Sequence record: MG976803.1
Strand: one strand, 5' to 3'
DNA length: 64,000 nucleotides
Source of the DNA: Escherichia phage myPSH2311
Below are positions 22,261 through 61,242 of the stretch, piece by piece. A program made the translations under genes and the position numbers. Position 1 is the first letter of the stretch, and each line of letters begins with the position of its first letter. Below the pieces are notes generated by a model. It was not told where the DNA came from and searched no databases. It worked only from the letters and a program-made list of their open reading frames with translations.

Positions 22261-22427
22261 TTGCAAGCCTTTTAAGGCGCGCTGAAGCGGCTTTAAATGG
22301 CGCTAAATCGTGCAAAATGCCCATTGGGAGCCTGAATGGCGCGTGTTTTGCATAAGCCGGCGTTTGCCCAGTTCGTAAGGCTGGTATTTTGCTGTAAAGC
22401 GTGATTCATCGCCGCCTGATGCGTACT

Positions 22428-23535
22428 ATGGAAGATAAGGGCATATCTAGAGAGGATGCTGAAGCATTTGCTGGTTCCTATATGGATAACCGTTATGCAC
22501 TTCTTGAGAAGCCTATGACTCCTACTGAACATCAGAATGCTCGTTCTCGTATCGAAGCTGATGTTGAGAAGTTTGCTAAGAAGTACGAATCAATGACTCC
22601 TATCGAGAAAGAGATTGTTAAGGTTACTGGAGATACTGAAGGTAAGCTTGATAACTTGGATGCGGATACTAGGAAGGCTATTGAGGAGGCTCAGAAGGTT
22701 GACTCTGATATTAAGAAACTGCAAGAGGAAGAGTTGGAGATGGAGAAGATTCGTTCTGCTCTGCCTGATGATGAAAGATCTCAAGCAAATTCTGATATCT
22801 TGGAAAGCATTAAACAACAGGAAGAGGTCTTTGCTGATAAAGTAGAGAAAGCTTTCTTGAGTGGGAAGAGCTTGGATGAGTTGGCTAGTGTGGCTGAAGT
22901 TTTAGACAGGGTTCATGGTGCAGATAAGGCTGGTAACAACCGTCGCTTTGTACGTGCATTGCAGACTGCTGCTGAAAACAAGAAGAAGTATGGTGATAAT
23001 CCAGTAGCTTGGTTTAGTGCTGATGATTACTCTGCCATTGCTAAACTTGGTGCTTCTTCCGCAGGTGGTAACAAATCCAGAGCACTGGAGAAGATCTTTG
23101 GTTCTACAGCTGAACAGGCTAAGAGTAAGTTGCTTGGTAGGGATGATGTAGCGAAGATGAGACGTGTGATTGAAGAGAACCCTGATATCAAGATTCCTTC
23201 TTACAAGACAGGTCAGGTTTCCAGTCCCAGTCAATGGGCATGCATGGTCCAAAATCGGCCCCTAGGGTAACGTCGGAATCCGGTACGCTTATGCCCCTAA
23301 GTGCATTTTTTTGCTTGGTAGGGATGATGTAGCGAAGATGAGACGTGTGATTGAAGAGAACCCTGATATCAAGATTCCTTCTTACAAGACAACAAATCGT
23401 ACTGAGTACTTGCAGTTCTTGGAGAAGTTTAATGACGAAGGGAAGCCTAAGATTAAACGTGGCTCATTGTCAGAGAAGCTTGAACGCAGTAAGCGTCAAT
23501 CGAGACTCCGTGTAAGAGTTCGACCTAAGGAGTGA
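22428..23535 (+). CDS. Hypothetical late protein, reading frame broken by a 100-bp insert plus 81-bp duplication (23211-23391)
   Basis: ORF 22401-23270 ends inside the GC-rich insert; ORF 23311-23535 restarts with a duplicated LGRDDVAKMRRVIEENPDIKIPSYKT segment. Confidence 0.35.
23211..23310. other. GC-rich insert flanked by 81-bp perfect direct repeats (23130-23210 and 23311-23391)
   Basis: Direct comparison of the two repeat copies; insert has different composition from flanks. Confidence 0.6.
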
Positions 23536-23812
23536 TAAAAGAAAAGCCCAGGGCTCGTTCAAGTCAAATGATGGGCTAGTCAATTAAGCCCCTTGGGCAT
23601 AGCTGGCAATGCTAGTCACAACTTCTTCATTCATATACCCTCCTAGATTGTGTTTATAAAATTAGTAAGTTTCTCTTCACTTTCATCAAAAGCTTTTCCA
23701 GCTGCTTCCATCTCCCAAGTATCGGCATTGTCAATAAAGCTCTGAGCTTCTAATAGGTCGTGGATTAAGTCGAAGAGTTTATTTTTATCTGCTTGTGTGA
23801 TCATGTCAGTTC

Positions 23813-35144: not shown

Positions 35145-36128
35145 TTATGAGCTTAAAGCTCCTTTGCGTGCTCCAGCTGCTTTTCCAGCTCGATCACCAC
35201 TTTTGCCGCCGTTTGAACGGTTTGAGCTGACTGATTCAACACGTAAGTTGCTTGACGCATTAGAGCCTCCAGACTTGACAGCTCGTTTGTGTCCAACGTC
35301 TTTACCTCTGACAGCAGCTTTTCCATCGCGCTTTTCAACGATGCGACGTGCACGGTGGCGCTGAGCATCTCCGCTCTTGCTCCCAATTCCCGTTTCACCG
35401 CGCTTGATCGCAGTCCTTCTTTCTTGTGCATAATCTCTCTTTCCTACATGATCTGCCATTAGATTTCTCCTGTTGGGCAATGACGTTAAACGCCCGTTGT
35501 GGCCCAAAATTGGCGCCCAAAATTGGGGCTTAATGCGTGCGTAATTTTTGGGCCAAATTAAGGCCGTATATAATAACAGCTGAGAGGTTTCTCCCAATCG
35601 AGTCATGATTGAGAAGGCTTCATCTTTAGTGGTGTTCTGGAACTCATCAACAATAACAATAGCATCATTGAAAGAACGACCACGGAGATATTCCAGAGGT
35701 ACAAACTCAATGTTACCATTTCCGATTTGGCATTCATAGAATCCCTTACCATATCGCTGAGTAATAACATCAATGATAGGCATCAGGTAAGGTTCAAACT
35801 TCTCACGCATTCCTCCCGGAAGTAACCCAAGAGAGTTGCCCATGCCGACAGAAGGGCGACTCAGAATGATCTTCTGAATCTTACCGCTCTTCAGTGCATC
35901 AATAACTGTGGAAGTGATTACAAAGGTCTTACCACAGCCCGCAGGAGCGTCTGTGAACACAACTTGTTTAGTCTTAATAGCATTGAGTAGCTCAGACTGA
36001 AACTGGTTCTGAGGGACTACAGGCTTTGCTAAAACCACCTCTTCATACTCTCGCTTACCTTTACGAGTAACAAGTGCTTCCCGACGAAGGTCTTTCCGTG
36101 ATTCTTTCCGTGATTGACGACGACTCAT
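35145..36128 (-). CDS. phoH: PhoH-like ATPase, reading frame runs through a GC-rich insert after the DEFQN motif
   Basis: Walker A APAGCGKT; DEFQNTT...TRLG; downstream translation (LLLYTALIWPKNYARIKPQFW...) is insert-encoded. Confidence 0.5.
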   Translation of the reverse strand: MSRRQSRKESRKDLRREALVTRKGKREYEEVVLAKPVVPQNQFQSELLNAIKTKQVVFTDAPAGCGKTFVITSTVIDALKSGKIQKIILSRPSVGMGNSLGLLPGGMREKFEPYLMPIIDVITQRYGKGFYECQIGNGNIEFVPLEYLRGRSFNDAIVIVDEFQNTTKDEAFSIMTRLGETSQLLLYTALIWPKNYARIKPQFWAPILGHNGRLTSLPNRRNLMADHVGKRDYAQERRTAIKRGETGIGSKSGDAQRHRARRIVEKRDGKAAVRGKDVGHKRAVKSGGSNASSNLRVESVSSNRSNGGKSGDRAGKAAGARKGALSS

Positions 36129-37038
36129 TTACGCTCTCCAATTTCTTCGTAATGACACTCAGTAGTTAAGCAGTCTTTACAGATTGCTGTATAAACCCTG
36201 ACGTTAGTAAATCGTTTGTTCTTCCCTTTGGTTGGAGAGCCTTTGGCAAGCTCTCTGATAACCTTGTTACTTAAATGAAGGTTTGTTCCTTCACATTTAG
36301 AGCACTTCATGGTTCATATCTTTATGAATCCTGTAAACAGCTGTCGCCATACAAGCAACAGCCTCGTTGTGTGGGAGGTGCATCCCTGTAGAACCATCCC
36401 AATCTTTGAACTCATTGTCAAAGACTCCGGTAGGCTCTGGATATAGAGCTTGCAGCTCCACTAGATCATTAGCAACTTGTTGCCATTTATCATCAGACCA
36501 GATAGGGTCATCCAACCAGTAATACAAATAGGAATGGATGATCAATTGCCTTCTATGCCGATTGATTACTTCAGCGGGACTTATCTCACTTCCATTTGAA
36601 GTCCTAAATGTATTACTGTCAATCATTTCACAACCTTAAATTTGAATGTTGTTGGGTGATAATAATGCAACCTATTGATAGTGTGCTTTGTTTCGAGATA
36701 TATCCTGCAAGAGTGGCACATGACATGGGTCAGACCAGTTACAGGGTTAGGTTTGAAGTTGGCGACAGGCTTCTCTTTCTTACAGAAGCTACAGACTTTC
36801 TTTTCCATCTTTTCTCCAGTGGTCAACGAATTGCTGAAACACCTTATGGTCGAATGTGAAACCACGAGCAATCCCACACTCTACGAAAGTAGAAGGCATA
36901 TAGTCTACATCATCTTTAGACGTATGACCATAAACTTGAATAAGCTTTTTAATCTTATCCTTCTCTCTTCGAGGAAGCATCCTAAATGCCTCCTGAATAT
37001 CTGTAATATGTTTGATTTTCATCAGAAAGCCTCTGATA

Positions 37039-37383
37039 TTAACTCTCCAAAGTTTTCTTCAGAGCTGCCCATGAGATTGGGTAGAGCTTAGCCATCTCTT
37101 CATCTACGGATTTAGCAAACACTCGAACTTCATATTGAGCGTGAGATGAGAGTCGCTGACGACACAACTCAAACCAGCCATACAAAGAACCAGTCCACAC
37201 CCACTCAGTGATCATCCCCTGAGGAAGAACAAATCGAGCTTGCTCTGGTGCAATAAATTCAATCAACTTGTCATATGTTGCTAGAGAAGCTTCATATGCA
37301 TCGTTAATCAACATTAATGCTTCAGCTCGTTCTCCGTCGATGAGTTGAATCCCTGAACCTGCATGGTTTGCCCAAAATGGCAT
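37039..37383 (-). CDS. thyX: ThyX, C-terminal half
   Basis: PEQARFVLPQGMITEWVWTGSLYGWFELCRQRLSSHAQYEVR matches ThyX C-terminal helical region. Confidence 0.55.
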   Translation of the reverse strand: MPFWANHAGSGIQLIDGERAEALMLINDAYEASLATYDKLIEFIAPEQARFVLPQGMITEWVWTGSLYGWFELCRQRLSSHAQYEVRVFAKSVDEEMAKLYPISWAALKKTLES

Positions 37384-37451
37384 TGGCGCTATAGCATGGG
37401 GCTTTTTAAATGGCCCCGCGGGTTAATGCTAATGGCGGATTTTGGCCACGG
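37384..37451. other. GC-rich insert splitting thyX into two ORFs in different frames
   Basis: 68 bp between the two ThyX ORFs; composition unlike flanking coding sequence. Confidence 0.55.
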
Positions 37452-37757
37452 TTATGCATGCGTAGGGAGTTCAACTGCTCCATCTTTATACCGCCGGGAC
37501 ATTTCGTTCCACGAGAATCCAACCTGATGCTTGCCCAGCTGTCTCGCAATTGCGATAGGTGCTTTGCATCGGAAACTGACTTGCGGGTGTCGGAATGGAG
37601 TACAGTGTTTTTCCCGTGCAAGGAAGTTGATAAGTTTTGTGTCTCTCTCATTTAAGTCACCTTCTCGAACAACACCGAAAGATACTCTAGCTGCATTGAC
37701 TACAGATTTGTCACTACCCATTGCTTCAATCAGTGTTGCTTGTAGTTGTTCGTTCAA
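37452..37757 (-). CDS. thyX: Flavin-dependent thymidylate synthase ThyX, N-terminal half (gene split)
   Basis: AARVSF...TPFRHPQVSFRCKAPIAIARQ...S(11)...SRRY ThyX-like pattern; ends shortly after SRRY. Confidence 0.55.
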   Translation of the reverse strand: MNEQLQATLIEAMGSDKSVVNAARVSFGVVREGDLNERDTKLINFLAREKHCTPFRHPQVSFRCKAPIAIARQLGKHQVGFSWNEMSRRYKDGAVELPTHA

Positions 37758-38196
37758 TTAAAAGTTCCTTTTTTCGATTCATGTAAACTTGATGAGCTTC
37801 TTCGGCAGTTCCATACATACCTAGATGTATATCTACTTTATCAATACAAATAACAGCCCTATATCTAATAGTCCCTGATTTATATTTGACAACCTTAACA
37901 CCTTGAAGCCCTGTTTCCTTGTTTGATACCCTAGCCCCGAACTGGTTGTGGCAGTTTGTCGAGGTGTCCACCAATCTCAAGTTCTGTATTGAGTTGTTCT
38001 TCTTATTTCTATCGATATGGTCTATCTGAGAAGAAGGCCACTCTCCATAGTAAAAGAACCATGCCACTTTATGAGCTTTGTGTACTTTCCCTTTAAACCG
38101 CAGGGTTATGTACTTACTTCGAGTTCCTCCTAATTTCTTACCTTTTCGAAAGAACTCTCCAGTCTCAGGGATATACTCTAAATCATCGATTAACAT
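37726..38196 (-). CDS. HNH homing-endonuclease-like protein
   Basis: KVHKAHKVAWFFYYGEWPSSQIDHIDRNKKNNSIQNLRLV...NCHNQ HNH-type motif. Confidence 0.55.
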   Translation of the reverse strand: MLIDDLEYIPETGEFFRKGKKLGGTRSKYITLRFKGKVHKAHKVAWFFYYGEWPSSQIDHIDRNKKNNSIQNLRLVDTSTNCHNQFGARVSNKETGLQGVKVVKYKSGTIRYRAVICIDKVDIHLGMYGTAEEAHQVYMNRKKELLIERTTTSNTD

Positions 38197-38461
38197 TCAG
38201 AGCTGTATCTAAAAATGCTTTCAGGTTTGCTTCAGTCTGCATACCAGAGAGGCTGTAGTGTGCACCACTGTTACGGTCAGGCACAACGAAAGCAGGGATA
38301 CTTCGTACACCATACTTAACAGCTTGTTCACGACCATCACCTTCAAGGATGTTAATCTCTTCCACTTCTACATCAAACTCCTTAACAACCTTCTCAAAGG
38401 TAGGAGCCATTGCTTTACATGGAGCACACTGATCACTATAAAACTTAATTACTTTAGACAT
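38183..38461 (-). CDS. Thioredoxin/glutaredoxin-like protein
   Basis: CAPC active-site motif in a ~90-aa protein. Confidence 0.55.
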   Translation of the reverse strand: MSKVIKFYSDQCAPCKAMAPTFEKVVKEFDVEVEEINILEGDGREQAVKYGVRSIPAFVVPDRNSGAHYSLSGMQTEANLKAFLDTALNVNR

Positions 38462-38710
38462 GTAAATCCTTATGCAGTCAGGAGGTGAAGCAGGAACGGG
38501 ATAACAACAGCTACGATAACCATGATAGTTGATGCTGTTTGAATCTCACCTTTCTTATCAGGAGTTTCTTCAATAAGCTTACCAGAAGCCCAATAAATAC
38601 CACCACCAATAAAGATAGCCCAAATACCCCATACGATTGCTGATAACATATATCTATATCCTTATAAATAAGTTCGCCCCACCTCGGGTTAGGAGACAGG
38701 GCGGAGGTTT

Positions 38711-39322
38711 TTAGTAAGACACGTCACCACTTGAATGGGACATGTTGCTCTTGACGAAGTAGCAATACTTGCCAAGACCTTCATTAATTTCTTGAAGCAT
38801 ACTCTGATCGACAGGGTAGGATGCTAAATCGCCATCAAACTCATCCATCTTCTCAATAATACACATCAAGGTCATGCACATATCAGAGAGCATACCGTCC
38901 ATGTCTAGATCAGCATTACCCTCTGAGAACCAGGCATGGGAGAGGTAGTTAGCCGCTGTAGCATCCACCTTAACGCAGTGGTATCGCATACGCTCAGCAA
39001 TACGATCTCCTACCTGTCGTGCGTAATCTTCCAGCTCGTCAAACATACCATGAACACCCTGAAATCCTGCACCAGAGACATTCCAGTGGTAGTTTTTAGC
39101 TTTGATATGCAAGAGTTCCATGTTAGCTTGTAAGCAGCTCAGGATGTGTTCTAGGCTGTTTGCACTAATCATGCCTTGCATTGTTTCAAGGCGAGAGATT
39201 GAAAGCTCAGACCGGTCTAACATACTATAACTGTCACGACCAATCTCAGGTAAATCAAAAACATTCTTATGCATTTGGGTTTTCTCCATCAAGTTCAACT
39301 GAGTTAGCAACATTACGTGCAA
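38711..39322 (-). CDS. Dps/ferritin-like protein
   Basis: KNYHWNVSGAGFQGVHGMFDELEDYARQVGDRIAERMR resembles Dps ferroxidase-region pattern; assignment from memory. Confidence 0.45.
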   Translation of the reverse strand: MHVMLLTQLNLMEKTQMHKNVFDLPEIGRDSYSMLDRSELSISRLETMQGMISANSLEHILSCLQANMELLHIKAKNYHWNVSGAGFQGVHGMFDELEDYARQVGDRIAERMRYHCVKVDATAANYLSHAWFSEGNADLDMDGMLSDMCMTLMCIIEKMDEFDGDLASYPVDQSMLQEINEGLGKYCYFVKSNMSHSSGDVSY

Positions 39323-40135
39323 TATTATCCATTACCTGCTGGGTAATTACGATGCAGTTTAGGCATGGTAATGCGTTTAGGCGTCTTGGGGAGGTGCCCC
39401 CAGTTGCAAGCTGATGCTGCGGGTAAATTGGCGCCATGGGAAACGCGTTAATGCGTGCCTGATGTTATCTTTTCTCATGTGTTGCTCAAGATCCCAAACA
39501 ACATGAATAGCCCACATCTTTTTCATTAGTAATGTACCTTTCCGCTGATATAAACACGACCAGAAGAATACTCCTTGGCCTTATGGATGCTGATACTATT
39601 AACCACGTCACCAGTAAGCATAGTCTTTTTAAAATCTCGAGCTTGTTGACGAGTAGGGAGTGCAGTCATAGTCATACCACCTGATGCCCACTTAATCTTC
39701 GCTAACCAGAATTTTCTCATAGTGATTGGTCTCATTAGTAATAAACCTTACTGTTGACACAAAAAGCACCTTCACTATTCACGATAGCTTTTCCTAATGT
39801 AACCTTGTTAAGTCTAAAAGTAGACTTGTATTGGTTTTTGACCCTACGTGCGTGCTCTCGAGTATTAACAAAATCTACAGCTACTAACTCTCCAGTCGTG
39901 TTATCATGTACACGAACAATCCACTTTTTCATTTTACTAAACCCTTCATGTAGTCATAAAGATCATTAGAAGCTTTACCCCATTCAAGGTGCTTCTTATC
40001 CATATAACGCTTACAGACTTCTTTATTACCTTCATCACAAGTATCAAATCGATGACATGCCCGACCAAATACCATTGCTTTTAACTGAGCATCAGTAGTT
40101 AAATATTTAAGTTCTTGAAACTCTTCTTTATTCAT

Positions 40136-40669
40136 TTACACACCCTTAGATGCAACTACACCTTCAGAGTTATTATAACGACCCTTCACTGCATAGGAGT
40201 GTTCCCCTGCATGAGAGTGCTCAAACATGACCATCTGACCAACACGCATACCAGCACGAACTCGTAAGCTATGATGCTTGGTTACGTTATGGAATTCAAA
40301 TGTCAGCTTACTACTATTAAATCCTGCATCTGCCCAACCGGCGTGAAGGTGGTTCAAACCACAACGAGCCATAGACGAACGCAGAACAAACAGACTTGAG
40401 ATGTTATCTGGAAGATTAAACTCCTCCATAGAGTGAGCCAAGAAGAACTGACCCGGAGTGATAACCAAACCCTCTTCAGGAATCTTTACTTCCTTCCACT
40501 GAAGATTCTCTTTCGCATCAATATCAACGATGCCATCAGCCTGTTCTTCAACAAGGATAGTATCGCCAATACGAATATCCACACTAGCAGCGTTAACATA
40601 CTTATGCTCCGCATCCAGATAGCCATTGTCAATTACATCATGCAGTTCAACACTTCCTAGTAAACTCAT
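40136..40669 (-). CDS. dcd: dCTP deaminase/dUTPase-family protein
   Basis: 177 aa; beta-rich dUTPase-like sequence; RBS AAGGAG before ATG. Confidence 0.5.
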   Translation of the reverse strand: MSLLGSVELHDVIDNGYLDAEHKYVNAASVDIRIGDTILVEEQADGIVDIDAKENLQWKEVKIPEEGLVITPGQFFLAHSMEEFNLPDNISSLFVLRSSMARCGLNHLHAGWADAGFNSSKLTFEFHNVTKHHSLRVRAGMRVGQMVMFEHSHAGEHSYAVKGRYNNSEGVVASKGV

Positions 40670-40696: not shown

Positions 40697-40861
40697 TTAA
40701 GCGTGCATATTTTGGCTAATTTTTGGCGTAAAAGTTTTCGCCCAGTGCCTGATTGAACCGGGTCGTAATTATTGCCCGGGTAGTGTTTAAAATGGCGAGG
40801 AATTAACAGCTGAGTGTGGTGCATCAATAACACCATCATCAATTAATTTATGTAACTCTGG
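40697..40861. other. Insert upstream of dcd carrying a diverged duplicate of the dcd start region
   Basis: 45-bp near-identical repeat (40652-40696 vs 40862-40906, 2 mismatches) including RBS and ATG; copy at 40818-40908 encodes MSLLGSPELHKLIDDGVIDAPHSAVN vs MSLLGSVELHDVIDNGYLDAEHKYVN. Confidence 0.55.
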
Positions 40862-40888
40862 ACTTCCTAGTAAACTCATTCTTATTCC

Positions 40889-41266: not shown

Positions 41267-41322
41267 CCCTTCAATTGCAAATTGGCGCCCAATTTGGCAA
41301 TGATTTGCCCCGTTTGTTAAGC

Positions 41323-42183
41323 CTATGCAAATGTGCGCTTTGGCGATTGGGCCAAATTGGCCTGAAGACTAGACATAATCTGAATCTCTTCATAAGGGAT
41401 TCCAAAGAATCGACTCATGTCTCGGTTAACACAATATAGAGCACTTGTTGTATCTTCAATAAGAGAAACCTGACCTAATCCATTGACTAGATGACTAACT
41501 GGCTGAGGTGTGGGAAGATATCGAGTTTGGGCCATGTATTGATGCGCAACTGCTGGAGAGGAAAATCTCAACACTTGTGAGTTAGGCCACTTCTTGTGAA
41601 CATACCTGATTTCACGACTAGAGACAACCACTGGACAAGGGGAAGTCATAGCCAAATATCCGTGAGAAGTCATGAATAAGTTGTCAAGAGTCATCGCACC
41701 ACGGCACATCATAGGAAAATTATCCAATACCTCTTCAATAGAAGTAGGATAATTAAACATGAATTGGATACGAACCCCATTCCACTGAAACTCAATAATA
41801 TCAGTGAATGTTAATTGAGAACCCCCAGCATAGGATTCGTTTGTAGCTTCAGCAAGAAGTGATGCATATTCAATATCTTGTGACTCTAGCCATTCCTTCA
41901 CATTACTTTCAATCTCCCGTCCAAGCTCTTGCCAACGATCAGTTGGGATGAAAGTGTTTTGAGTTCTTGGTGTTTGTCCTCTGACAATAAAGATATCAAT
42001 GTCATGTGGAGCTATGTTATTAAGGACAGCATCACGAACAGCCCCACCAGTAATGATGGGACAGATACCATCTGGAATCAAGTTGTTGTTAATCAACTGT
42101 TCAATGAAGTGACGACCAACAGTGATATCAGGTTGTTGAGCAACCTTATCTTCAATTTGGTTAATCGGGATAACAATCATTTT
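41323..42183 (-). CDS. Pol-beta superfamily nucleotidyltransferase (CCA-adding/poly(A)-polymerase-like), N-terminal part
   Basis: GICPIITGGAVRDAVLNNIAPHDIDIF matches GG.VRD...D.D NTase signature; C-terminal 16 residues are insert-encoded. Confidence 0.5.
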   Translation of the reverse strand, partial: KMIVIPINQIEDKVAQQPDITVGRHFIEQLINNNLIPDGICPIITGGAVRDAVLNNIAPHDIDIFIVRGQTPRTQNTFIPTDRWQELGREIESNVKEWLESQDIEYASLLAEATNESYAGGSQLTFTDIIEFQWNGVRIQFMFNYPTSIEEVLDNFPMMCRGAMTLDNLFMTSHGYLAMTSPCPVVVSSREIRYVHKKWPNSQVLRFSSPAVAHQYMAQTRYLPTPQPVSHLVNGLGQVSLIEDTTSALYCVNRDMSRFFGIPYEEIQIMSSLQANLAQSPKRTFA

Positions 42184-44073: not shown

Positions 44074-44240
44074 ACCAAAATTGCGTGACGTTGGCTAATT
44101 GCTGACGTGGAATGGCCCTGGCAATTGGGATGCCCCGTGTTAGCTGCGATTTGGCGCGTTATTGGCCCCGTGTTTGCAAGTAATGCGCGGGCTTTATGCC
44201 GTTAATGCTGGGTTTATGCGTGCATATTGCTGTGCCAATG
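44074..44240. other. GC-rich insert between primase zinc-ribbon and Toprim coding regions
   Basis: Zinc-ribbon ORF runs into this segment and stops; Toprim ORF begins just after it; composition unlike flanks. Confidence 0.55.
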
Positions 44241-44412
44241 CGTAATGGGTAGTGCCCTTTTCGAACACTTCGTAATTCCCACAACGGTTACAACTCCCCC
44301 ACTCCTCACCAGTCTCTTCGTTACGGAAGAGAATCATGTGGTTGTGGGTTTTATCACGACCATGAGAGATACATTCCTTACAACCTGTGTCTCCCAAAAT
44401 GATCTTTGACAT
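44194..44412 (-). CDS. Primase zinc-binding domain (N-terminal fragment of primase)
   Basis: CKEC...CNRC Cys4 zinc-ribbon; last ~17 residues are insert-encoded. Confidence 0.5.
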   Translation of the reverse strand: MSKIILGDTGCKECISHGRDKTHNHMILFRNEETGEEWGSCNRCGNYEVFEKGTTHYALAQQYARINPALTA

Positions 44413-44590: not shown

Positions 44591-45214
44591 TTAAATACTT
44601 GGCTTCAAGTCTCCGAAGAGCCATGTGGCAATTTTATCTTGTTCTTCGTCGATATGATAAATCCAAGCGATAACAGTTTCACCTGAGTCCATCTTAACAG
44701 CAATCTGAGTACGCTGATAGAAGCTGTCTTCAGGGCTACGTTTGTTGTAACCTTCCAGACGGTCATACGGACCTTCCAGACCTGCTTTGTCAGTAGCAAA
44801 CACTTCTACACGAACAGGCTTGTTGTTATTGCTGTGTGCGAGAGAGATGCTCGGGAAGTAGGAACCACCGTAACGGAACAGATCAAAGTTGTCTAATGGG
44901 CCGTTTTATGCGGTTTAAAGGCCTTGACCAGTGCATTTGCCCGTTAAATGGCGTGGGGATTTCCCAGTGCGGGTGGCCAGTAAACGTGTTTTGTCTTTGT
45001 CAGTAGCAAACACTTCTACACGAACAGGCTTGTTGTTATTGCTGTGTGCGAGAGAGATGCTCGGGAAGTAGGAACCACCGTAACGGAACAGATCAAAGTT
45101 GTCTTCAGTCCAACCTTCACCAATTGACTTAGCACCAGCTCGGTCATTAACTAAATAGTTAGCTTGACCACGACGAAGAGAACCATAAGTTGCTACGTAA
45201 ATTACTTCTGACAT
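44591..45214 (-). CDS. Gamma-glutamyl cyclotransferase (AIG2/GGCT)-like protein, interrupted by 100-bp insert with 110-bp flanking direct repeats
   Basis: N-terminus MSEVIYVATYGSLRRGQAN resembles YGSL...G GGCT signature; ORFs 44915-45214 and 44591-44803 join if 44895-45104 is removed. Confidence 0.45.
44895..44994. other. GC-rich insert flanked by 110-bp perfect direct repeats (44785-44894 and 44995-45104)
   Basis: Exact repeat verified by reading both copies. Confidence 0.6.
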
Positions 45215-45425
45215 TATCTATACCTTTCCAGTCTTTCATGATGTTTTCAATGTAAGCACACTGCTGATCAGTGGCTCCTGTTACAAACACTTCTAACCCC
45301 AACTGCTCACAGAAGGGATTAAGAATCAATATTCTGGTTTGCCCATACGAGTGATGCTCTCGGTAGATAACACACCCAGCATCCCATACAGAATCAATGG
45401 CTTTACTCAATCTTTCATGTTTCAT
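45159..45425 (-). CDS. Hypothetical protein
   Basis: 88-aa ORF overlapping GGCT-like start. Confidence 0.3.
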   Translation of the reverse strand: MKHERLSKAIDSVWDAGCVIYREHHSYGQTRILILNPFCEQLGLEVFVTGATDQQCAYIENIMKDWKGIDNVRSNLRSNLWFSSSWSS

Positions 45426-45478
45426 AAAACCTCCAGCTTATCCGAACTAGCCTCCTCTTTCGAAGAGGCTAAAGCAGA

Positions 45479-46880
45479 TTACTCTGTAATAAAGATTTTG
45501 ATTACACCACAGATTGCTGCACTCTCAAATACTGCAACAGCTTCACTCCCCTGAAAGAAGGCCACTTTGCCGTCAGAGAAGTTAAACATGTCAGCATCTA
45601 GGTCCATAGCTCGCATATCACCAGCGTCGTTAGTATCTTTAAACAGAACTTTATACTTATTCACAGATAGGTCACTCCTTTGTCTTGTTGTGCTTCAGAG
45701 ATGATACGTTCTACACATTCCATAGAATACTTATCACCACGTTTCAGGAAAGTCACAATTGCAGAGAATTGATTACCAATCATTCGCTGATTAGTAATAC
45801 CCCACTCCTCACACAACTTACGCAACTCTTTACGAGAGCCTACAATCAGAGGCTCTTTTTGTTCCATCATTCCATTTTGTACTAGATCTTCCAATGAAAA
45901 CATATCCATATATCCTTAGTAGTTTACAACAGTGCCATCGTTCAGGGTAAGGCTATTAATCTGCAACACACGACCAAGCTGACGATCACTAATTGGTGCG
46001 TTCCATCCAGAGCGGTAGAAGTTACGACCACAGAAGAACAAGATCACATTACTTGCTACAGTCGAACCGTTTTCAGGATGCTTGATGTTAGCGATATAAT
46101 AACCACGACGCAGATTACGACGGGTTACAGGGTTGATCTCTAACCCTTGCTCTTCAACTTGCATTGTTTCAGGAACAGGTTCCGAAGATTCTTCAGCAAC
46201 TGGCTCGGAGCTTTCCACTGACAGTGCGTAATCCTCATCACCTGCTGGTGAAAATGTTTCTTCCACTTCTTCAACAGGAAGTTCGTATGCAACACGATAG
46301 TCAGGCTCAACACCAGAGAAGCTCTTAACAAACTCAACAATATTGTGAGTATAGGTTTCCAGAGTTGTTCCAGTCAGTCCCGGAGCTGTGTTAACTTCCA
46401 GAACCCAAGCGTTAGTATTTTTACTAATCAGGTCAACAGCACCAAAGTTCAAACCCAGAGCAGATACAGCTTTGTGAGCTTGAATCAAAACCTGATCAGG
46501 AGGCGCATCTTGGAAGTTTGAGGAATAAACCCAACCAGTGTGATGATTTCGAACGTCTTCACGATAGGAAGGATCTTCACGGTAACCATTACGACGAATC
46601 TTCTTCTGAACGTAAGTGATAACACCTTCGAATACATGAACACGCCATTCACGATTGGTGAACGATAAGGGAAAGGTCCTTGGCCATAGCGTGGCGTATG
46701 CATGCATGCATGCATAAATTGCGTGTTTTGGGCGCGGTGAACGACTGTTAAAGTGTTAGCTTGACCACGACGAAGAGAACCATAAGTTGCTACGTAAATT
46801 ACTTCTGACATTATCTATACCTTTGTTGGTTTGTTTAGTTTATCCGAACTAGCCTCCTCTTTCGAAGAGGCTAAAGCAGA
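45479..46880 (-). repeat. Tandem repeat unit 3: truncated ATP-grasp copy (45916-46707), 82-aa ORF (45661-45909), 61-aa ORF (45479-45664), plus GC-rich junction and GGCT-start fragment
   Basis: Near-identical to units at 46881-48246 and 48247-49904; truncated copy begins exactly at codons REWRVHV. Confidence 0.7.
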
Positions 46881-48246
46881 TTACTCTGTAATAAAGATTT
46901 TGATTACACCACAGATTGCTGCACTTTCAAATACTGCAACAGCTTCACTTCCCTGAAAGAAGGCCACTTTGCCATCAGAGAAGTTAAACATGTCAGCATC
47001 TAGGTCCATAGCTCGCATATCACCAGCATCATTAGTATCTTTAAACAGAACTTTATACTTATTCACAGATAGGTCACTCCTTTGTCTTGTTGTGCTTCAG
47101 TGATGATACGTTCTACACATTCCATAGAATACTTATCACCACGTTTCAGGAAAGTTACAATTGCAGAGAATTGATTACCAATCATTCGCTGATTAGTAAT
47201 ACCCCACTCCTCACACAACTTACGCAACTCTTTACGAGAGCCTACAATCAGAGGCTCTTTTTGTTCCATCATTCCATTTTGTACTAGATCTTCCAATGAA
47301 AACATATCCATATATCCTTAGTAGTTTACAACAGTGCCATCATTCAGGGTAAGACTGTTAATCTGCAACACACGACCAAGCTGGCGATCACCAATCGGTG
47401 CATTCCACCCAGAGCGGTAGAAGTTACGACCACAGAAGAACAAGATCACATTACTTGCTACAGTTGAACCATTCTCAGGGTGCTTGATATTAGCGATGTA
47501 ATAACCACGACGTAAAGTACGACGGGTTACAGGGTTGATCTCTAACCCTTGTTCTTCCACTTGCATTGTTTCAGGAACAGGCTCCGAAGACTCTTCAACA
47601 ACTGGTTCAGCTGTCAATGCAAAGTTCTCGTCATCTGCTGATTCAGCAAACTCTTCCACTTCTTCAACAGGCAGTTCGTAAGCAACGCGGTAGTCAGGAT
47701 CAACACCAGAGAAACTCTTAACAAACTCAACGATGTTGTGAGTGTAAGTTTCCAGAGTTGTTCCAGTCAGGCCCGGAGCTGTATTAACTTCCAGAACCCA
47801 AGCGTTAGTACCTTTGCTAATCAGGTCAACAGCACCGAAGTTCAAACCCAGAGCAGATACAGCTTTGTGGGCTTGAATCAGAACCTGATCAGGCGGCGCA
47901 TCTTGGAAGTTTGAGGAATAAACCCAACCAGTATGATGGTTTCGAACGTCTTCACGATAGGAAGGATCTTCACGATAACCATTACGGCGAATCTTTTTCT
48001 GAACATAGGTGATAACACCTTCAAACACATGAACACGCCATTCACGAGGTGTAAGCTGCGAATGCGGTTAAATTGCAATGCGTGCCCAAGTGTTTTTGCT
48101 AAGGTGGGTAACATTTACGCGGTCCATTAGTCGTCGTGCAGTTGCGTATAAGTTGCTACGTAAATTACTTCTGACATTATCTATACCTTTGTTGGTTTGT
48201 TTAGTTTATCCGAACTAGCCTCATCTTTCGAAGAGGCTAAAGCAGA
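46881..48246 (-). repeat. Tandem repeat unit 2: truncated ATP-grasp copy (47318-48028), 82-aa ORF (47063-47311), 61-aa ORF (46881-47066), plus GC-rich junction
   Basis: Protein copies differ at a few residues from unit 1; same breakpoint as unit 3. Confidence 0.7.
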
Positions 48247-48432
48247 TTACTCTGTAATAAAGATTTTGATTACACCGCAGATTGCTGCACTTTCAAACAC
48301 TGCAACAGCTTCACTTCCTTGAAAGAAGGCCACTTTGCCATCAGAGAAGTTAAACATGTCAGCATCGAGGTCCATTGCTCGCATCTCACCAGCTGCATTG
48401 GTATCTTTAAACAGAACTTTATACTTATTCAC
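48247..48432 (-). CDS. Small protein (61 aa), first of three copies
   Basis: 61 aa; copies at 46881-47066 and 45479-45664 are identical in protein sequence, the unit-1 copy differs at two residues; followed by conserved hairpin. Confidence 0.35.
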   Translation of the reverse strand: MNKYKVLFKDTNAAGEMRAMDLDADMFNFSDGKVAFFQGSEAVAVFESAAICGVIKIFITE

Positions 48433-48677
48433 AGATATGTTACTCCCTTGTCTTGTTGTGCTTCAGTGATGATACGCTCTACACATTCCATAGAGTACTT
48501 ATCACCACGTTTTAGGAAAGTTACAATTGCAGAGAATTGATTACCAATCATTCGCTGATTAGTAATACCCAACTCCTCACACAATTTACGCAACTCTTTA
48601 CGAGAGCCTACAATAAGAGGCTCTTTTTGTTCCATCATTCCATTTTGTACTAGATCTTCCAATGAAAACATATCCAT
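48429..48677 (-). CDS. Small protein (82 aa), first of three copies
   Basis: Conserved in all three repeat units. Confidence 0.35.
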   Translation of the reverse strand: MDMFSLEDLVQNGMMEQKEPLIVGSRKELRKLCEELGITNQRMIGNQFSAIVTFLKRGDKYSMECVERIITEAQQDKGVTYL

Positions 48678-48683
48678 ATATCC

Positions 48684-49904
48684 TTAGTAGTTTACAACAG
48701 TGCCATCATTCAGGGTAAGGTTATTAATCTGCAACACACGACCAAGCTGACGATCACTAATTGGTGCGTTCCATCCAGAGCGGTAGAAGTTACGACCACA
48801 GAAGAACAAGATCACATTACTTGCTACAGTTGAACCATTTTCAGGATGCTTGATGTTAGCGATATAATAACCACGACGCAGATTACGACGGGTTACAGGG
48901 TTGATCTCTAACCCTTGCTCTTCAACCTGCATTATTTCAGGGACAGGCTCCGAAGACTCTTCAACAACTGGCTCGGAGCTTTCCGCTGATAGTGCGTAAT
49001 CCTCATCACCTGCTGGTGAAAATGTTTCTTCCACTTCTTCCACGGGAAGTTCGTATGCAACACGGTAGTCAGGCTCAACACCAGAGAAGCTCTTAACAAA
49101 CTCAACGATGTTGTGAGTGTAGGTTTCCAGAGTTGTGCCAGTCAGGCCCGGAGCTGTATTAACTTCCAGAACCCAAGCGTTAGTACCTTTGCTAATCAGG
49201 TCAACAGCACCGAAGTTCAAACCCAGAGCAGATACAGCTTTGTGAGCTTGAATCAGAACTTGATCAGGAGGCGCTTCAGTGAAGGAGTTAGAATAAACCC
49301 AACCAGTATGATGGTTACGAATATCTTCACGATAGCTTTCCAGTTCACGATAACCATTACGACGAATCTTCTTCTGAACGTAAGTGATAACACCTTCGAA
49401 CACATGAACACGCCATTCACGACGTGGGCCTTGGATGCCTTTGGTGTACAGAGGAGCATCCGCAACACCTTCTCGCGGAAGACGAACAGTGATCCCCTCA
49501 CCAGAGTGACCAGTCAAGGTTGCACGTTCATAAACAATTTCATTCCGGTTCCAGTTCTGAGCTACTTCACGATCTACGGTGTATTCAACAGTTTTGACTT
49601 CAGCTAAACGCAGTGCGTTAAATGCTGCAACTTTGTTAGCGGCTCGGTTCAAGGCAACCACAGAGTTCAATACAGTTGCACCGCCAAAGAAAGAATCATT
49701 ATATCGACGGTTTCCATAGTTGACAACAATATCACCAACTCGAGAACGATAACGAGAACCCTCTGATACCAGAGACATTACGTTAGCATTTAAGCGAAGT
49801 TCCTGAATCTTAGTTAACGGGTTACATGATGCGTTTAAGCCTGTTACCGTGGCGTTAAATCGGGTTAAGTCAGTCGTAGTGCGTAGTGACTTGTGTGATG
49901 GCAT
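48684..49904 (-). CDS. ATP-grasp family ligase (full-length copy)
   Basis: 406 aa; C-terminal half contains GAVDLISKGTNAWVLEVNTAPGLTG (ATP-grasp EVN..PG signature). Confidence 0.5.
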   Translation of the reverse strand: MPSHKSLRTTTDLTRFNATVTGLNASCNPLTKIQELRLNANVMSLVSEGSRYRSRVGDIVVNYGNRRYNDSFFGGATVLNSVVALNRAANKVAAFNALRLAEVKTVEYTVDREVAQNWNRNEIVYERATLTGHSGEGITVRLPREGVADAPLYTKGIQGPRREWRVHVFEGVITYVQKKIRRNGYRELESYREDIRNHHTGWVYSNSFTEAPPDQVLIQAHKAVSALGLNFGAVDLISKGTNAWVLEVNTAPGLTGTTLETYTHNIVEFVKSFSGVEPDYRVAYELPVEEVEETFSPAGDEDYALSAESSEPVVEESSEPVPEIMQVEEQGLEINPVTRRNLRRGYYIANIKHPENGSTVASNVILFFCGRNFYRSGWNAPISDRQLGRVLQINNLTLNDGTVVNY

Positions 49905-50353
49905 AGGTAACCTACGCCTATATGTACGTGACCACAGTCAGTACGAAGTCCCTTGTTCTGAGAAGTGGGGGACGGATTTTTCTGACCAGTGAAAGCGTTG
50001 AAGTCAGGAGTACATCCAAAGATGAACGCTGATTCATTAAAGGTCTTCATTTCTTCTTCGGTGAAGATGTGAGAGCTAACACCCGGAGCTGTTTCCATGT
50101 CCAGTTTGTTCAGGACATTATTGGTAAGATCGATACCACGTTGCATGTTATCGTTAAACGCTTCAAAACCGCTCTGTGGGTCGATATCAAACTCAGCCAG
50201 TACGTTGTCCTCTTGAAGACGAACATCTTTAGCCAGAGTGATCTTATCGTCCTTAGAACAGCCTAATAGACCAGCTACAGAGGTGATGATACCATTACTG
50301 GTACGAACGAACATTTCAGGGTCAGAGCCGATAAGGAATTTGCGCTTAGTCAT
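49865..50353 (-). CDS. Hypothetical protein (possible ligase-associated)
   Basis: 162-aa ORF overlapping neighbours; no confident motif. Confidence 0.3.
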   Translation of the reverse strand: MTKRKFLIGSDPEMFVRTSNGIITSVAGLLGCSKDDKITLAKDVRLQEDNVLAEFDIDPQSGFEAFNDNMQRGIDLTNNVLNKLDMETAPGVSSHIFTEEEMKTFNESAFIFGCTPDFNAFTGQKNPSPTSQNKGLRTDCGHVHIGVGYLCHHTSHYALRLT

Positions 50354-59268: not shown

Positions 59269-59385
59269 AATCTTATTCCTTTCAGTGATAAGTTATATCG
59301 GGCAAGCCCATCAAGGCGATAGGCTTGAACAAATAACTTAATCAAGTAAACTAAACGATTTCCAACTCTTTTTTACGGTGCCCGA

Positions 59386-59688
59386 TTATCTACGTTGCGA
59401 TCTTTTGCTGATGGCAGTCTTTAAGTCGCTAGTCGGTAGTCGGGTATCTTTACTGTCTTTAGTCGTAGTCGTAAATGCGTACTTTGTCAAAAGTCGTGCA
59501 TGTGATTGAGCAAATGACGCTTTAACAGCCATTTTCCTAACTTCTTCTTTACGCTGGTTAGTGTGTACAGTATCCCAATGATTGTTATCACGTTGGCGCT
59601 GTAATATCTTACTACATTTGCGATGGTTTCCCGTGCTGCGATGTTTCTCGCAAATAGGACACTTGCCAAAATTATTACTGAATATCAT
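59386..59688 (-). CDS. Cys/His-containing small protein (possible zinc-binding)
   Basis: CPIC...H...C spacing in first 30 residues. Confidence 0.3.
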   Translation of the reverse strand: MIFSNNFGKCPICEKHRSTGNHRKCSKILQRQRDNNHWDTVHTNQRKEEVRKMAVKASFAQSHARLLTKYAFTTTTKDSKDTRLPTSDLKTAISKRSQRR

Positions 59689-60014: not shown

Positions 60015-61242
60015 TTATGCCGCTTGACGTGCCGCCATAATCTCAGCCGCTTTGCGCAGTACTTCTTCCTCTTCTGCTTTCGCCGCTTGTTCACTACGGA
60101 TTGCAACCGTTGAAGAGATACGACCGCGCAGGTTATCTAATTTTTCCTGCATTTTGGCAATGGTGGATTCCATTTCATCAGCGTATGAATCGAGTGATTC
60201 TAATTCCTTGCTTGATGCGTTCATCAGATAATCATCCGAGATCGCTACCGTTGAGGCCGTGACTTTCTTGATGAGTGAATCAAAGGACTTTTTAACCTTC
60301 CCAACTTCTTCACTCAGGGCGATAGTGTTATCGCTAGTTGCGCCGTTGCGCTCATCAGCCAGTAATTTGGCTTCAATACGGATTGCATTCAAACGTTCGA
60401 CTAAAGCGTAAATATCTTGGTTAAAATCTTCCTTGTTTTTCGCCGGTATTTGCAGGTGTGCCACTACGTTGTCATTGCAACCCTTGTAAAAGTTAGGATT
60501 ATCGACTTCAATTTCACGACCTAGTGCAAAATTTTCGAAAGCATTTGACCAGCGAGCGCGGTTTAGTACCATTTTGGATTTAATTTGCGCTACTTTCGCA
60601 TCTTCTTTAGCTTTCGCCTCACCTTCCAGAATAAACCACTATTTACGAACATATGCGTCCCGTGTACCCGTCGTTTACTTGACTGGCTTTGTCATGCGTA
60701 TTTTGTCGTACGTGACTGTTTTCGTACGTTGCGTGCATGCGTTTTGTCAAAATGTTTTTCGCCGGTATTTGCAGGTGTGCCACTACGTTGTCATTGCAAC
60801 CCTTGTAAAAGTTAGGATTATCGACTTCAATTTCACGACCTAGTGCAAAATTTTCGAAAGCATTTGACCAGCGAGCGCGGTTTTGTTCCATTTTGGTTTT
60901 AATTTGCGCTTCTTTCGCATCTTCTTTAGCTTTCGCCTCACCTTCCAGATTAATCCACTTTTTACGACCATTTGCCGCATCGGTGTTAAACTTGATAGGA
61001 GTTAAGAAAGTAATTGCGGTAGCGATAACATCCATATCACGGAAACGTTCAGTTAACAGGAAGTCAACCGCCGCCTGCAATACATCTAACTTCTTACCGT
61101 TGCTACGAAAGTGCTGCAAATGCCCTAACAGGAAGTTAGAAACATCTTGTTTGATCGCCGCGTTATTACTGCGAATGTTGTTAGCCAGAGCATTAAAACC
61201 GGATTCGTTAACCAGAGTAAAGATTTTAGCCATAATATTCAC
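60015..61242 (-). CDS. Hypothetical protein, interrupted by 102-bp insert and 217-bp duplicated segment
   Basis: ORFs 60643-61242 and 60015-60572 share a duplicated RARWSNAFENFALGREIEVDNPNFYKGCNDNVVAHLQIPAKN segment. Confidence 0.4.
60651..60752. other. Insert flanked by 217-bp direct repeats (60434-60650 and 60753-60969) that differ at 8 positions
   Basis: Base-by-base comparison of the two copies. Confidence 0.6.

What the first reader, a model, noticed from the sequence alone, without database searches (positions are those of the whole stretch)
38711..39322. Dps/ferritin-like protein encoded by a phage
Dps-like iron-sequestering or DNA-protecting proteins are unusual in phage replication modules. 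It neighbours thioredoxin and ThyX, suggesting a redox and nucleotide-metabolism cluster. The region just upstream (39323-39480) is another GC-rich insert that truncates a small upstream ORF (MKKMWAIHVVWDLEQH...).
Basis: partly seen in the sequence, partly recalled or inferred. Interest (0 to 1): 0.45.

Follow-up and report, generated by a model that had tools for sequence, protein, structure and literature searches.

The report
Known phage Dps mini-ferritin gene
The gene is a real, intact Dps-type mini-ferritin, but it is the already-annotated gp67 gene shared by all phiEco32-like coliphages, and the "GC-rich insert" beside it looks like a sequence artefact, not biology.

Summary
The window is a Kuravirus (phiEco32-like) coliphage. 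The minus-strand ORF at 38711-39322 is real and is a Dps-family mini-ferritin. It passes Pfam Ferritin, matches PHROG 3636 at 5e-55 and solved Dps structures by sequence, and its AlphaFold model matches only Dps folds. All five ferroxidase ligands and the adjacent Trp are invariant. The likely start is ATG 39274, giving 187 aa, not the TTG at 39322.

It is the orthologue of phiEco32 gp67, annotated as a "member of the Dps family". It is a middle gene in the conserved ThyX, thioredoxin and dCTP-deaminase cluster of C3-morphotype podophages, and is described in the SU10 and Privateer papers. So it is not new and not unusual for this lineage.

The protein is strongly acidic and has no basic tail. 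The usual "DNA binding protein" and "integrase" labels are therefore poorly supported. Iron and peroxide detoxification during replication is the likelier role, but it is untested.

The upstream "insert" is exactly 100 bp (39360-39459) and replaces 452 bp present in every relative examined. It destroys the conserved gp68-like partner gene and is found nowhere else. It is one of at least 15 similar blocks that break conserved genes across the window, most likely an assembly or gap-fill artefact.

The parts
38711..39274 (-). Dps-family mini-ferritin CDS (187 aa plus stop), the orthologue of phiEco32 gp67. Ferroxidase ligands are H63 (39086-39088), H75 (39050-39052), D79 (39038-39040), D90 (39005-39007) and E94 (38993-38995). 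W64 lies next to H63.
   Evidence: Family and fold evidence. The ORF is 99% identical to phage DE5 over all 203 aa.
39275..39322 (-). In-frame extension upstream to a TTG, 16 codons, probably not translated. It overlaps the 3' end of the gp68-like gene and contains the GGAG ribosome-binding site at 39284-39287.
   Evidence: The phiEco32 annotation has the same 564-nt CDS length.
38675..38703 (-). Terminator-like hairpin of 11 pairs followed by a T-rich tail, just after the Dps stop codon.
   Evidence: This is a pattern match only; 1 site was found against 1.2 expected in shuffles.
39267..39359 (-). Remnant of the gp68-like gene: the last 30 codons plus stop (NCIVITQQVMDNIARNVANSVELDGENPNA). 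Its stop overlaps the Dps start, as in phiEco32.
39360..39459 (.). Foreign block of exactly 100 bp and 57% GC. It replaces 452 bp that relatives carry: most of gp68, the intergenic spacer and the 3' two-thirds of gp69.
   Evidence: Boundaries and replacement. No match in phages, E. coli genomes, or the viral, genome and metagenome collections. No Rfam hit and no unusual fold.
39460..39526 (-). Remnant of the gp69-like gene (phrog_4939): the first 22 codons, MKKMWAIHVVWDLEQHMRKDNI. The reading frame then runs into the foreign block.
38470..38649 (-). Small hydrophobic 59-aa protein, the gp66 homologue (phrog_9296).
38183..38461 (-). Thioredoxin, the gp65 homologue, with a CAPC motif.
37726..38196 (-). 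HNH_3 homing endonuclease between ThyX and thioredoxin. It is also present in phage YW01 but absent from phiEco32 and DE5.
37039..37757 (-). ThyX flavin-dependent thymidylate synthase, split into two ORFs by another 100-bp foreign block at 37367-37466.

Best explanation
**Identity (confidence about 0.95).** The ORF is the Dps-family mini-ferritin of a phiEco32-like (Kuravirus) phage, orthologous to phiEco32 gp67 and SU10 CDS67.

**Fold and metal site (shown).** It has the Dps four-helix bundle with the short BC helix. It has the complete set of ferroxidase ligands, and the Dps-type fold matches imply an inter-subunit site.

**Mechanism (inferred, confidence about 0.55).**
1. The protein assembles into a 12-subunit shell.
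2. Fe2+ binds at the two-fold interfaces (H63/H75/D79 from one subunit, D90/E94 from the other). It is oxidised, preferentially with H2O2, and stored as ferric mineral.
3. This removes both Fenton reagents while the phage replicates its DNA.

**Expression.** The gene is transcribed as a middle gene together with ThyX, thioredoxin and dCTP deaminase.

**Why a phage might carry it (my own knowledge, not tested here).**
- ThyX is a flavoenzyme with an H2O2-producing oxidase side reaction.
- phiEco32-type phages shut off host sigma-70 transcription, so the infected cell cannot induce its own OxyR-dependent dps.
- The phage would therefore bring its own antioxidant pair, Dps and thioredoxin.

**DNA binding.** Binding through a basic tail is unlikely for this protein, so the usual label "DNA binding protein" is probably inherited from the family name.

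**The upstream block.** The adjacent 100-bp block is not part of the system. It is most likely an assembly, gap-fill or sequence-corruption artefact of this particular window.
For: **Family membership.**
- Pfam Ferritin scores above the gathering cut-off.
- PHROG 3636 matches at 5e-55.
- phmmer hits solved Dps proteins.
- The AlphaFold model has mean pLDDT 81, with helices at 41-65, 71-98, 107-112, 125-150 and 154-176.
- The top 50 Foldseek PDB hits are all Dps, with TM-score normalised to the target of 0.71-0.92.

**Metal site.**
- H63, W64, H75, D79, D90 and E94 are invariant in 18 phage homologues and align with the E. coli Dps ligands.
- The same columns match M. smegmatis Dps2.

**Orthology and context.**
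- The nucleotide-metabolism neighbourhood is conserved in 7-11, Privateer and LAh_8. In LAh_8 the neighbours include the anaerobic ribonucleotide reductase genes NrdD and NrdG.

**Expression.** The SU10 orthologue is listed as a middle gene and was detected by mass spectrometry at 35.8% coverage (PMC4281155). The Privateer orthologue was detected in CsCl-purified virion preparations (PMC7881722).

**Charge.** pI is 4.7 and net charge is -15. The N-terminal 45 residues have net charge -3 and a single Lys.

**Precedent.** The same antioxidant reading was proposed for Dps genes of gut phages and Lactobacillus phages.

**The block as artefact.**
- It is exactly 100 bp with crisp junctions.
- None of the 84 related phage records that match this region carries it. 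It has no match in any other collection searched.
- At least 15 similar blocks sit at deletion or duplication junctions and break PhoH, ThyX and the nucleotidyltransferase.
- The blocks share 7-mers almost absent from the rest of the window.
Against: - No biochemical or genetic test of any phage Dps was found in the searched literature. Ferroxidase activity, dodecamer formation and an antioxidant role are all inferred.
- The Kuravirus proteins carry a conserved 45-aa N-terminal extension and a C-terminal tail ending in Tyr, both of unknown role. They also have an unusual Met and Cys content (15 Met, 5 Cys). These features could indicate a different or additional function.
- Detection in purified virion preparations of two phages is not explained by a purely cytoplasmic antioxidant role. 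Co-purification of a dense iron-loaded particle would explain it.
- Non-Kuravirus homologues have short basic N-termini, so DNA binding may be ancestral.
- For the block, I cannot see the reads or the source record, so a genuine rearranged or defective genome cannot be formally excluded.
Confidence: 0.6

Rival explanations
1. The protein is a DNA-binding and DNA-compacting Dps, as the database label says. It would coat or condense phage DNA, possibly inside or on the virion, and shield it from nucleases or damage.
For: - The family name and the annotations say so.
- Orthologues were detected by mass spectrometry in virion preparations of SU10 and Privateer.
- Homologues in 7-11, Privateer and LAh_8 have short Arg/Lys-rich N-termini.
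Against: - This protein and all Kuravirus orthologues have an acidic N-terminal extension (net -3, one Lys). They also have an acidic C-tail and an overall charge of -15.
- Dps proteins without basic tails generally do not bind DNA (my own knowledge).
- The SU10 preparation also contained DNA polymerase, PhoH, the sigma factor and thioredoxin. Non-structural carry-over is therefore evident.
Confidence: 0.2
2. The protein manipulates iron supply rather than protecting against damage. It would sequester or buffer host iron to feed iron-dependent phage or host enzymes such as Fe-S or radical enzymes, or to alter Fur-controlled host physiology.
For: - The ferroxidase site is intact.
- In LAh_8 the gene lies among the anaerobic ribonucleotide reductase genes NrdD and NrdG. 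In Privateer it lies next to an NrdD-like fragment.
Against: - Nothing links the protein to iron release or delivery. The gp68-like neighbour, a small beta-barrel with only weak fold matches, gives no such hint.
- Kuravirus shows no ribonucleotide reductase in the cluster examined here.
- Nothing distinguishes this reading from the antioxidant one computationally.
Confidence: 0.12
3. The upstream 100-bp GC-rich block is a genuine biological insertion: a small mobile element, a recombination scar or an intron remnant that deleted gp68 and gp69 in this phage.
For: - The block differs in composition from the phage, 57% GC against 42.5%.
- Similar blocks recur in the window and share short words.
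Against: - Five blocks are exactly 100 bp, and several others are 95-97 bp.
- No block aligns to another beyond 11-14-mers.
- There are no flanking repeats or microhomology at the junctions.
- There is no Rfam match and no significant fold.
- A 24-mer from this block has no exact match in the viral, genome or metagenome collections. The block itself has no match in the phage or E. coli collections.
- Together the blocks interrupt PhoH, ThyX, gp73 and other conserved genes, and they flank triplicated segments. This is implausible for a viable phage.
Confidence: 0.08

Closest known systems
phiEco32 gp67 (phi32_67, YP_001671812, "DNA binding protein, member of the Dps family"), SU10 CDS67 and the other Kuravirus orthologues
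   Same: - They are 95-99% identical in protein sequence and have the same 187-aa length.
- They sit in the same position between the gp68-like gene and the gp66/thioredoxin/ThyX genes.
- The start overlaps the gp68 stop in the same way.
   Different: Nothing of substance differs in the gene itself. In this window the upstream partner gene gp68 is destroyed by the 100-bp block, and an HNH endonuclease lies downstream between thioredoxin and ThyX.
Bacterial Dps mini-ferritins with solved structures: M. smegmatis Dps2 (2z90), B. anthracis Dlp-2 (1jig), B. subtilis MrgA (2chp) and E. coli Dps (1dps)
   Same: - They share the four-helix bundle with the BC helix.
- They share the HW...H...D and D...E ferroxidase ligand pattern.
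- The expected mechanism is the same: oxidation of Fe2+ by H2O2 inside a 12-mer shell.
   Different: - Sequence identity is only 20-27%.
- The protein scores far below the NCBIfam Dps equivalog cut-off, 35 against 114 bits.
- It has an acidic 45-aa N-terminal extension where E. coli Dps has a Lys-rich DNA-binding tail.
- It is Met- and Cys-rich.
- It belongs to a small divergent clade: only 13 of 1.84 billion representative proteins match at E<=1e-10.
Dps genes of other phages: Grimontviridae (7-11, Privateer), Lahexavirus (LAh_8), the gut "Gratiaviridae" and Lactobacillus plantarum myophages
   Same: - All are phage-borne Dps genes embedded in DNA- or nucleotide-metabolism modules.
- The same antioxidant hypothesis was proposed for them in the literature.
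   Different: - 7-11, Privateer and LAh_8 are 29-40% identical. They lack the N-terminal extension and have short basic N-termini.
- The gut-phage and Lactobacillus-phage Dps proteins were not compared directly here.

Membership tests
Dps (mini-ferritin) family, Pfam PF00210 / InterPro IPR002177 | Sequence-profile match above the curated threshold | tested here: met
   PF00210 scores 30.9 bits against a cut-off of 24.5. There are phmmer hits to many solved Dps chains.
Dps (mini-ferritin) family, Pfam PF00210 / InterPro IPR002177 | Four-helix bundle with a short BC helix in the long crossover loop and no fifth E helix | tested here: met
   The AlphaFold model has helices at 41-65, 71-98, 107-112, 125-150 and 154-176. 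The Foldseek top 50 are all Dps.
Dps (mini-ferritin) family, Pfam PF00210 / InterPro IPR002177 | Inter-subunit ferroxidase ligands (His, His, Asp on one subunit; Asp, Glu on the partner) plus the adjacent Trp | tested here: met
   H63, W64, H75, D79, D90 and E94 are invariant across 18 phage homologues. They align with E. coli Dps H51, W52, H63, D67, D78 and E82 (the E. coli sequence and numbering are from memory). The same columns match M. smegmatis Dps2.
Dps (mini-ferritin) family, Pfam PF00210 / InterPro IPR002177 | Assembly into a hollow dodecamer | not testable with these tools
   Only a monomer model could be made.
Dps (mini-ferritin) family, Pfam PF00210 / InterPro IPR002177 | Fe2+ oxidation (H2O2 preferred) and iron-core formation | not testable with these tools
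   This needs biochemistry. No published assay of a phage Dps was found.
DNA-binding Dps (E. coli type), NCBIfam NF006975 equivalog | Score above the equivalog cut-off | tested here: not met
   35 bits against a cut-off of 114.
DNA-binding Dps (E. coli type), NCBIfam NF006975 equivalog | Lys/Arg-rich flexible N- or C-terminal tail | tested here: not met
   Residues 1-45 have net charge -3 with one Lys. The C-tail has net charge -1. The whole protein has net charge -15 and pI 4.7.
Maxi-ferritin / bacterioferritin | Intra-subunit di-iron site and a fifth helix, as in the 24-mer ferritins | tested here: not met
   No fifth helix is present. The ligand pattern and all best structural matches are Dps-type.
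Mobile element or intron (for the block 39360-39459) | Related copies elsewhere, terminal repeats or target duplication, or a recognisable RNA or protein component | tested here: not met
   No copy was found in any collection. There are no junction repeats. There is no Rfam hit and the fold z-score is -1.2.

The most novel reading that the evidence does not exclude
The Dps and the small gp68-like beta-barrel protein encoded immediately upstream form a dedicated phage module. Their genes overlap, and they co-occur in essentially the same roughly 133 phage genomes across three deeply diverged lineages. The module could be a mini-ferritin with a specific partner that is carried with the particle, which would fit the detection of Dps in virion preparations of SU10 and Privateer. 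Alternatively it could provide antioxidant cover while host transcription is shut off. The Kuravirus-specific acidic N-terminal extension would then be the docking or targeting element.
Probability: 0.12. Interest if true: 0.5.

Novelty: already known. Interest (0 to 1): 0.15.

Why it matters
The practical value is mainly corrective.
- The gene is a well-conserved, already annotated Dps of phiEco32-like phages. Many GenBank records call it "integrase" or "DNA binding protein", and neither label is supported by its sequence features.
- The function of phage Dps proteins has not been tested in any paper found here. A simple knockout or ferroxidase experiment would settle whether lytic phages carry their own protection against iron and peroxide damage.
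- The window itself contains many short foreign blocks that break genes. Any other first-stage finding that rests on "GC-rich inserts", split genes or duplications in this window should be treated as suspect.

Tried and rejected
1. **The TTG start at 39322.** I rejected it in favour of ATG 39274. The evidence is the ribosome-binding site, the orthologue annotation and the N-termini of the homologues.
2. **The block as RNA.** The block 39360-39459 has no Rfam match at E<=1, and its fold z-score is -1.2.
3. **The block as imported DNA.** It has no hit in phage records, E. coli genomes, or the viral, genome and metagenome collections.
4. **Shared k-mers between blocks against random native segments.** The test was inconclusive, because the duplicated regions of the window inflate the control. 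The 7-mer enrichment from the same call was informative.
5. **Function of the gp68-like neighbour.**
   - There is no Pfam or NCBIfam hit.
   - The AlphaFold model has a mean pLDDT of only 66.5.
   - Foldseek gives only weak Tudor/SH3/KOW-like small-barrel matches, best E=2e-3.
   - No function could be assigned.
6. **Phage-sigma promoter motif.** TAATGTAT does not occur near the gene, and its count in the window is not above chance.
7. **Sigma-70 promoter scan.** The number of sites found is not above that in shuffled sequence.
8. **Literature on tested phage Dps function.** Nothing was found.

Full report
**What the window is.** The region aligns at 92-98% nucleotide identity with Escherichia phages of the genus Kuravirus (phiEco32, SU10, YW01, DE5 and about 90 others). 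Gene order around the finding follows phiEco32 genes 60-75. On the minus strand it runs:
- PhoH
- a stand-alone NAD-ligase Ia-domain protein
- ThyX
- thioredoxin
- a small membrane protein
- the Dps-like gene
- the gp68-like gene
- three small paralogues (phrog_4939)
- dCTP deaminase
- a nucleotidyltransferase
- the polymerase exonuclease subunit
- the primase/helicase

**The observation.** The ORF at 38711-39322 (minus strand, 203 aa from TTG) exists. Its family assignment is secure on four counts.
- Pfam Ferritin PF00210 scores 30.9 bits, above the 24.5-bit gathering score.
- PHROG 3636 matches end to end at E=5e-55.
- phmmer against solved structures returns almost only Dps proteins. The best are M. 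smegmatis Dps2, B. subtilis MrgA, B. anthracis Dlp-2 and B. brevis Dps, at E of about 1e-8 to 1e-9.
- An AlphaFold model built on 26 homologues has mean pLDDT 81. It shows the Dps topology, helices A-D with the short BC helix at 107-112. The 50 best Foldseek matches in the PDB are all Dps proteins, with TM-score normalised to the target of 0.71-0.92.

**The start codon.** The likely start is ATG 39274, not the TTG.
- It gives 187 aa and 21.2 kDa, the length annotated for phiEco32 gp67 and the mass reported for SU10 CDS67.
- It has a GGAG 9 nt upstream.
- Independently called homologues begin MH(N/K)N.

**Ferroxidase centre.**
- H63, W64, H75, D79, D90 and E94 are invariant.
- They fall on E. 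coli Dps H51, W52, H63, D67, D78 and E82.
- The HMMER alignment to M. smegmatis Dps2 matches the same residues.

The metal site is therefore intact and under constraint.

**What does not fit the database labels.** GenBank records call the orthologues "DNA binding protein" or even "integrase".
- The protein is strongly acidic, with pI 4.7 and net charge -15.
- Its 45-residue N-terminal extension has net charge -3 and a single Lys.
- The C-terminal tail is not basic either.

E. coli-type DNA binding depends on a Lys-rich N-tail (my own knowledge). The protein also scores 35 bits against the 114-bit cut-off of the NCBIfam Dps equivalog. The more distant phage homologues (7-11, Privateer, LAh_8) lack the extension and have short Arg/Lys-rich N-termini. 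DNA binding may therefore differ within the phage clade.

The Kuravirus proteins are also unusually rich in Met (15) and Cys (5), several of them nearly invariant. I cannot explain this.

**How common and how known.**
- tblastn finds the gene in 135 of 50,697 phage records. They are all the Kuravirus-type coliphages, the 7-11/Privateer/Cronobacter group, Aeromonas LAh phages, and a few Synechococcus and Streptomyces phages.
- In a library of 1.84 billion representative proteins, 637 match at E<=1e-3 but only 13 at E<=1e-10. The phage clade is thus small and divergent within Dps.
- The SU10 paper lists CDS67 (DPS domain) among the genes shared by all five C3 phages then known. It places the gene among the middle genes and detected the protein by mass spectrometry at 35.8% coverage (PMC4281155).
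- The Privateer paper detected its Dps in CsCl-purified particles and says the function is unverified (PMC7881722).
- Dps genes in gut phages and Lactobacillus phages have been discussed as antioxidant functions.
- I found no experimental test of any phage Dps.

**Mechanism.** The fold, the ligands, the conservation and the expression of orthologues are shown. The following is inferred.
1. Twelve subunits form a shell.
2. Fe2+ is oxidised at the two-fold interfaces, preferentially by H2O2, and is mineralised inside the shell.
3. This removes both Fenton reagents during phage DNA replication.

The conserved neighbourhood fits a redox and nucleotide-metabolism role. The neighbours are ThyX, thioredoxin and dCTP deaminase, and in LAh_8 also NrdD and NrdG. 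ThyX's oxidase side reaction and host-transcription shut-off by phiEco32-type phages give a rationale for a phage-borne copy. Both points come from my own knowledge, not from tests here.

The rivals are DNA coating or compaction, possibly virion-associated, and iron-supply manipulation. The virion mass-spectrometry data favour the first rival. However, the SU10 preparation also contained polymerase, PhoH, the sigma factor and thioredoxin. An iron-loaded Dps particle could also plausibly co-band with phage.

**The upstream "GC-rich insert".** The foreign stretch is exactly 39360-39459, 100 bp with 57% GC.
- The junctions are sharp against DE5, YW01 and phiEco32.
- It replaces 452 bp that lie between the same flanks in DE5, YW01, phiEco32 and every other relative listed.
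ORF. Only the last 30 codons of the gp68 homologue survive.
- It has no match in phage records or E. coli genomes.
- A 34-mer from it has no exact match in the viral collection. A 24-mer has none in the genome or metagenome collections.
- It has no Rfam match and no unusual folding energy.

It is one of at least 15 such blocks in the window.
- Five are exactly 100 bp: 23211, 37367, 39360, 44895 and 46655.
- Others measure 95-97 bp or 68-170 bp.
- All lie at deletions, overlaps or duplications relative to DE5.
- One DE5 segment occurs three times in the window.
- The blocks break PhoH, ThyX and the nucleotidyltransferase.
- They do not align to each other, but they share short words that hardly occur elsewhere in the window: AATGCGT 6 of 7 occurrences, TGCATGC 5 of 5, AATGGCG 5 of 6.

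A viable phage with all these lesions is implausible, and 100 bp is the conventional length of an unsized scaffold gap. My best reading is an assembly, gap-fill or sequence-corruption artefact (about 0.85), not a mobile element. The Dps gene itself lies in an uninterrupted 1,163-bp stretch that is 97.9% identical to DE5 and is unaffected.

**A side observation: the gp68-like gene.** This is the gene lost to the block.
- It is a conserved small protein with the motif HRDxLxR...VVWSNGKY...VVITQQV.
- It lies directly upstream of Dps, with overlapping stop and start, in phiEco32, Privateer and LAh_8. It is also present in 7-11.
- It occurs in 133 phage records, with almost the same host breakdown as Dps.
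- Its model is a small beta-barrel of modest confidence with only weak Tudor/SH3/KOW-like matches.

Co-occurrence may simply reflect shared ancestry, so a functional link to Dps is only a lead.

**Verdict.**
- The Dps interpretation is correct.
- The claim of unusualness is not correct for this lineage.
- The "insert" is most likely an artefact.

Novelty: already known. Interest is low.

Noticed in passing
window 22264-22403, 23211-23310, 23550-23617, 35464-35580, 37367-37466, 39360-39459, 40697-~40800, 41280-41359, 44080-44248, 44895-44994, 46655-46754, 48052-~48150, 49815-49911, 59368-59503, 60657-60752: At least 15 short blocks, five of them exactly 100 bp, have no counterpart in related phages. 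They sit at deletion or duplication junctions and interrupt conserved genes. They share a vocabulary of 7-mers almost absent from the rest of the window. This looks like gap-fill or sequence corruption, not biology.
   Followed up: partly
window 44995-46654, 46837-48051, 48203-49814: The same region of phage DE5 (about 13.8-15.8 kb of its record) is present three times in the window. The copies are separated by foreign blocks.
   Followed up: no
window 37039-37383 and 37452-37757 (-): ThyX is split into two ORFs that cover Pfam Thy1 positions 106-190 and 1-92. A 100-bp block replaces 38 bp of the native gene.
   Followed up: partly
window 35145-36128 (-): PhoH matches the Pfam model only up to position 151 of 205. 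It then continues into an Arg/Lys/Gly-rich out-of-frame tail, and a foreign block at 35464-35580 replaces native sequence.
   Followed up: partly
window 40787-40879 (-) and 40136-40669 (-): A 30-aa ORF (MSLLGSPELHKLIDDGVIDAPH...) duplicates the N-terminus of the dCTP deaminase. About 45 bp of the native gene are repeated next to a foreign block.
   Followed up: no
L001 3227-3556 (phiEco32 gp68); L006 2642-2926; L007 2609-2962; L005 1397-1663; remnant at window 39267-39359: A conserved small gp68-like protein, predicted to be a beta-barrel, lies directly upstream of Dps and overlaps it in three deeply diverged phage lineages. It co-occurs with Dps in essentially the same roughly 133 genomes. 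Its function is unknown.
   Followed up: partly
window 37726-38196 (-): An HNH_3 homing endonuclease lies between ThyX and thioredoxin and overlaps the thioredoxin stop. It is present in YW01 but absent from phiEco32 and DE5, so it is a genuine variable mobile gene.
   Followed up: partly
window 39929-40135 (-): A 68-aa Cys-containing ORF (…CHRFDTCDEGNKEVC…) is absent from DE5, phiEco32 and YW01 at this position. It has native-like composition and no Pfam hit.
   Followed up: no
window 36297-36626 (-): A stand-alone 109-aa protein consists only of the NAD-dependent ligase Ia (NAD-binding) domain (Pfam Nlig-Ia, 2e-35). In relatives it is annotated as "DNA ligase" although it has no catalytic core.
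   Followed up: no
GenBank records of Kuravirus phages (e.g. DE5, YW01, IME267): The Dps orthologue is widely mis-annotated as "integrase".
   Followed up: no
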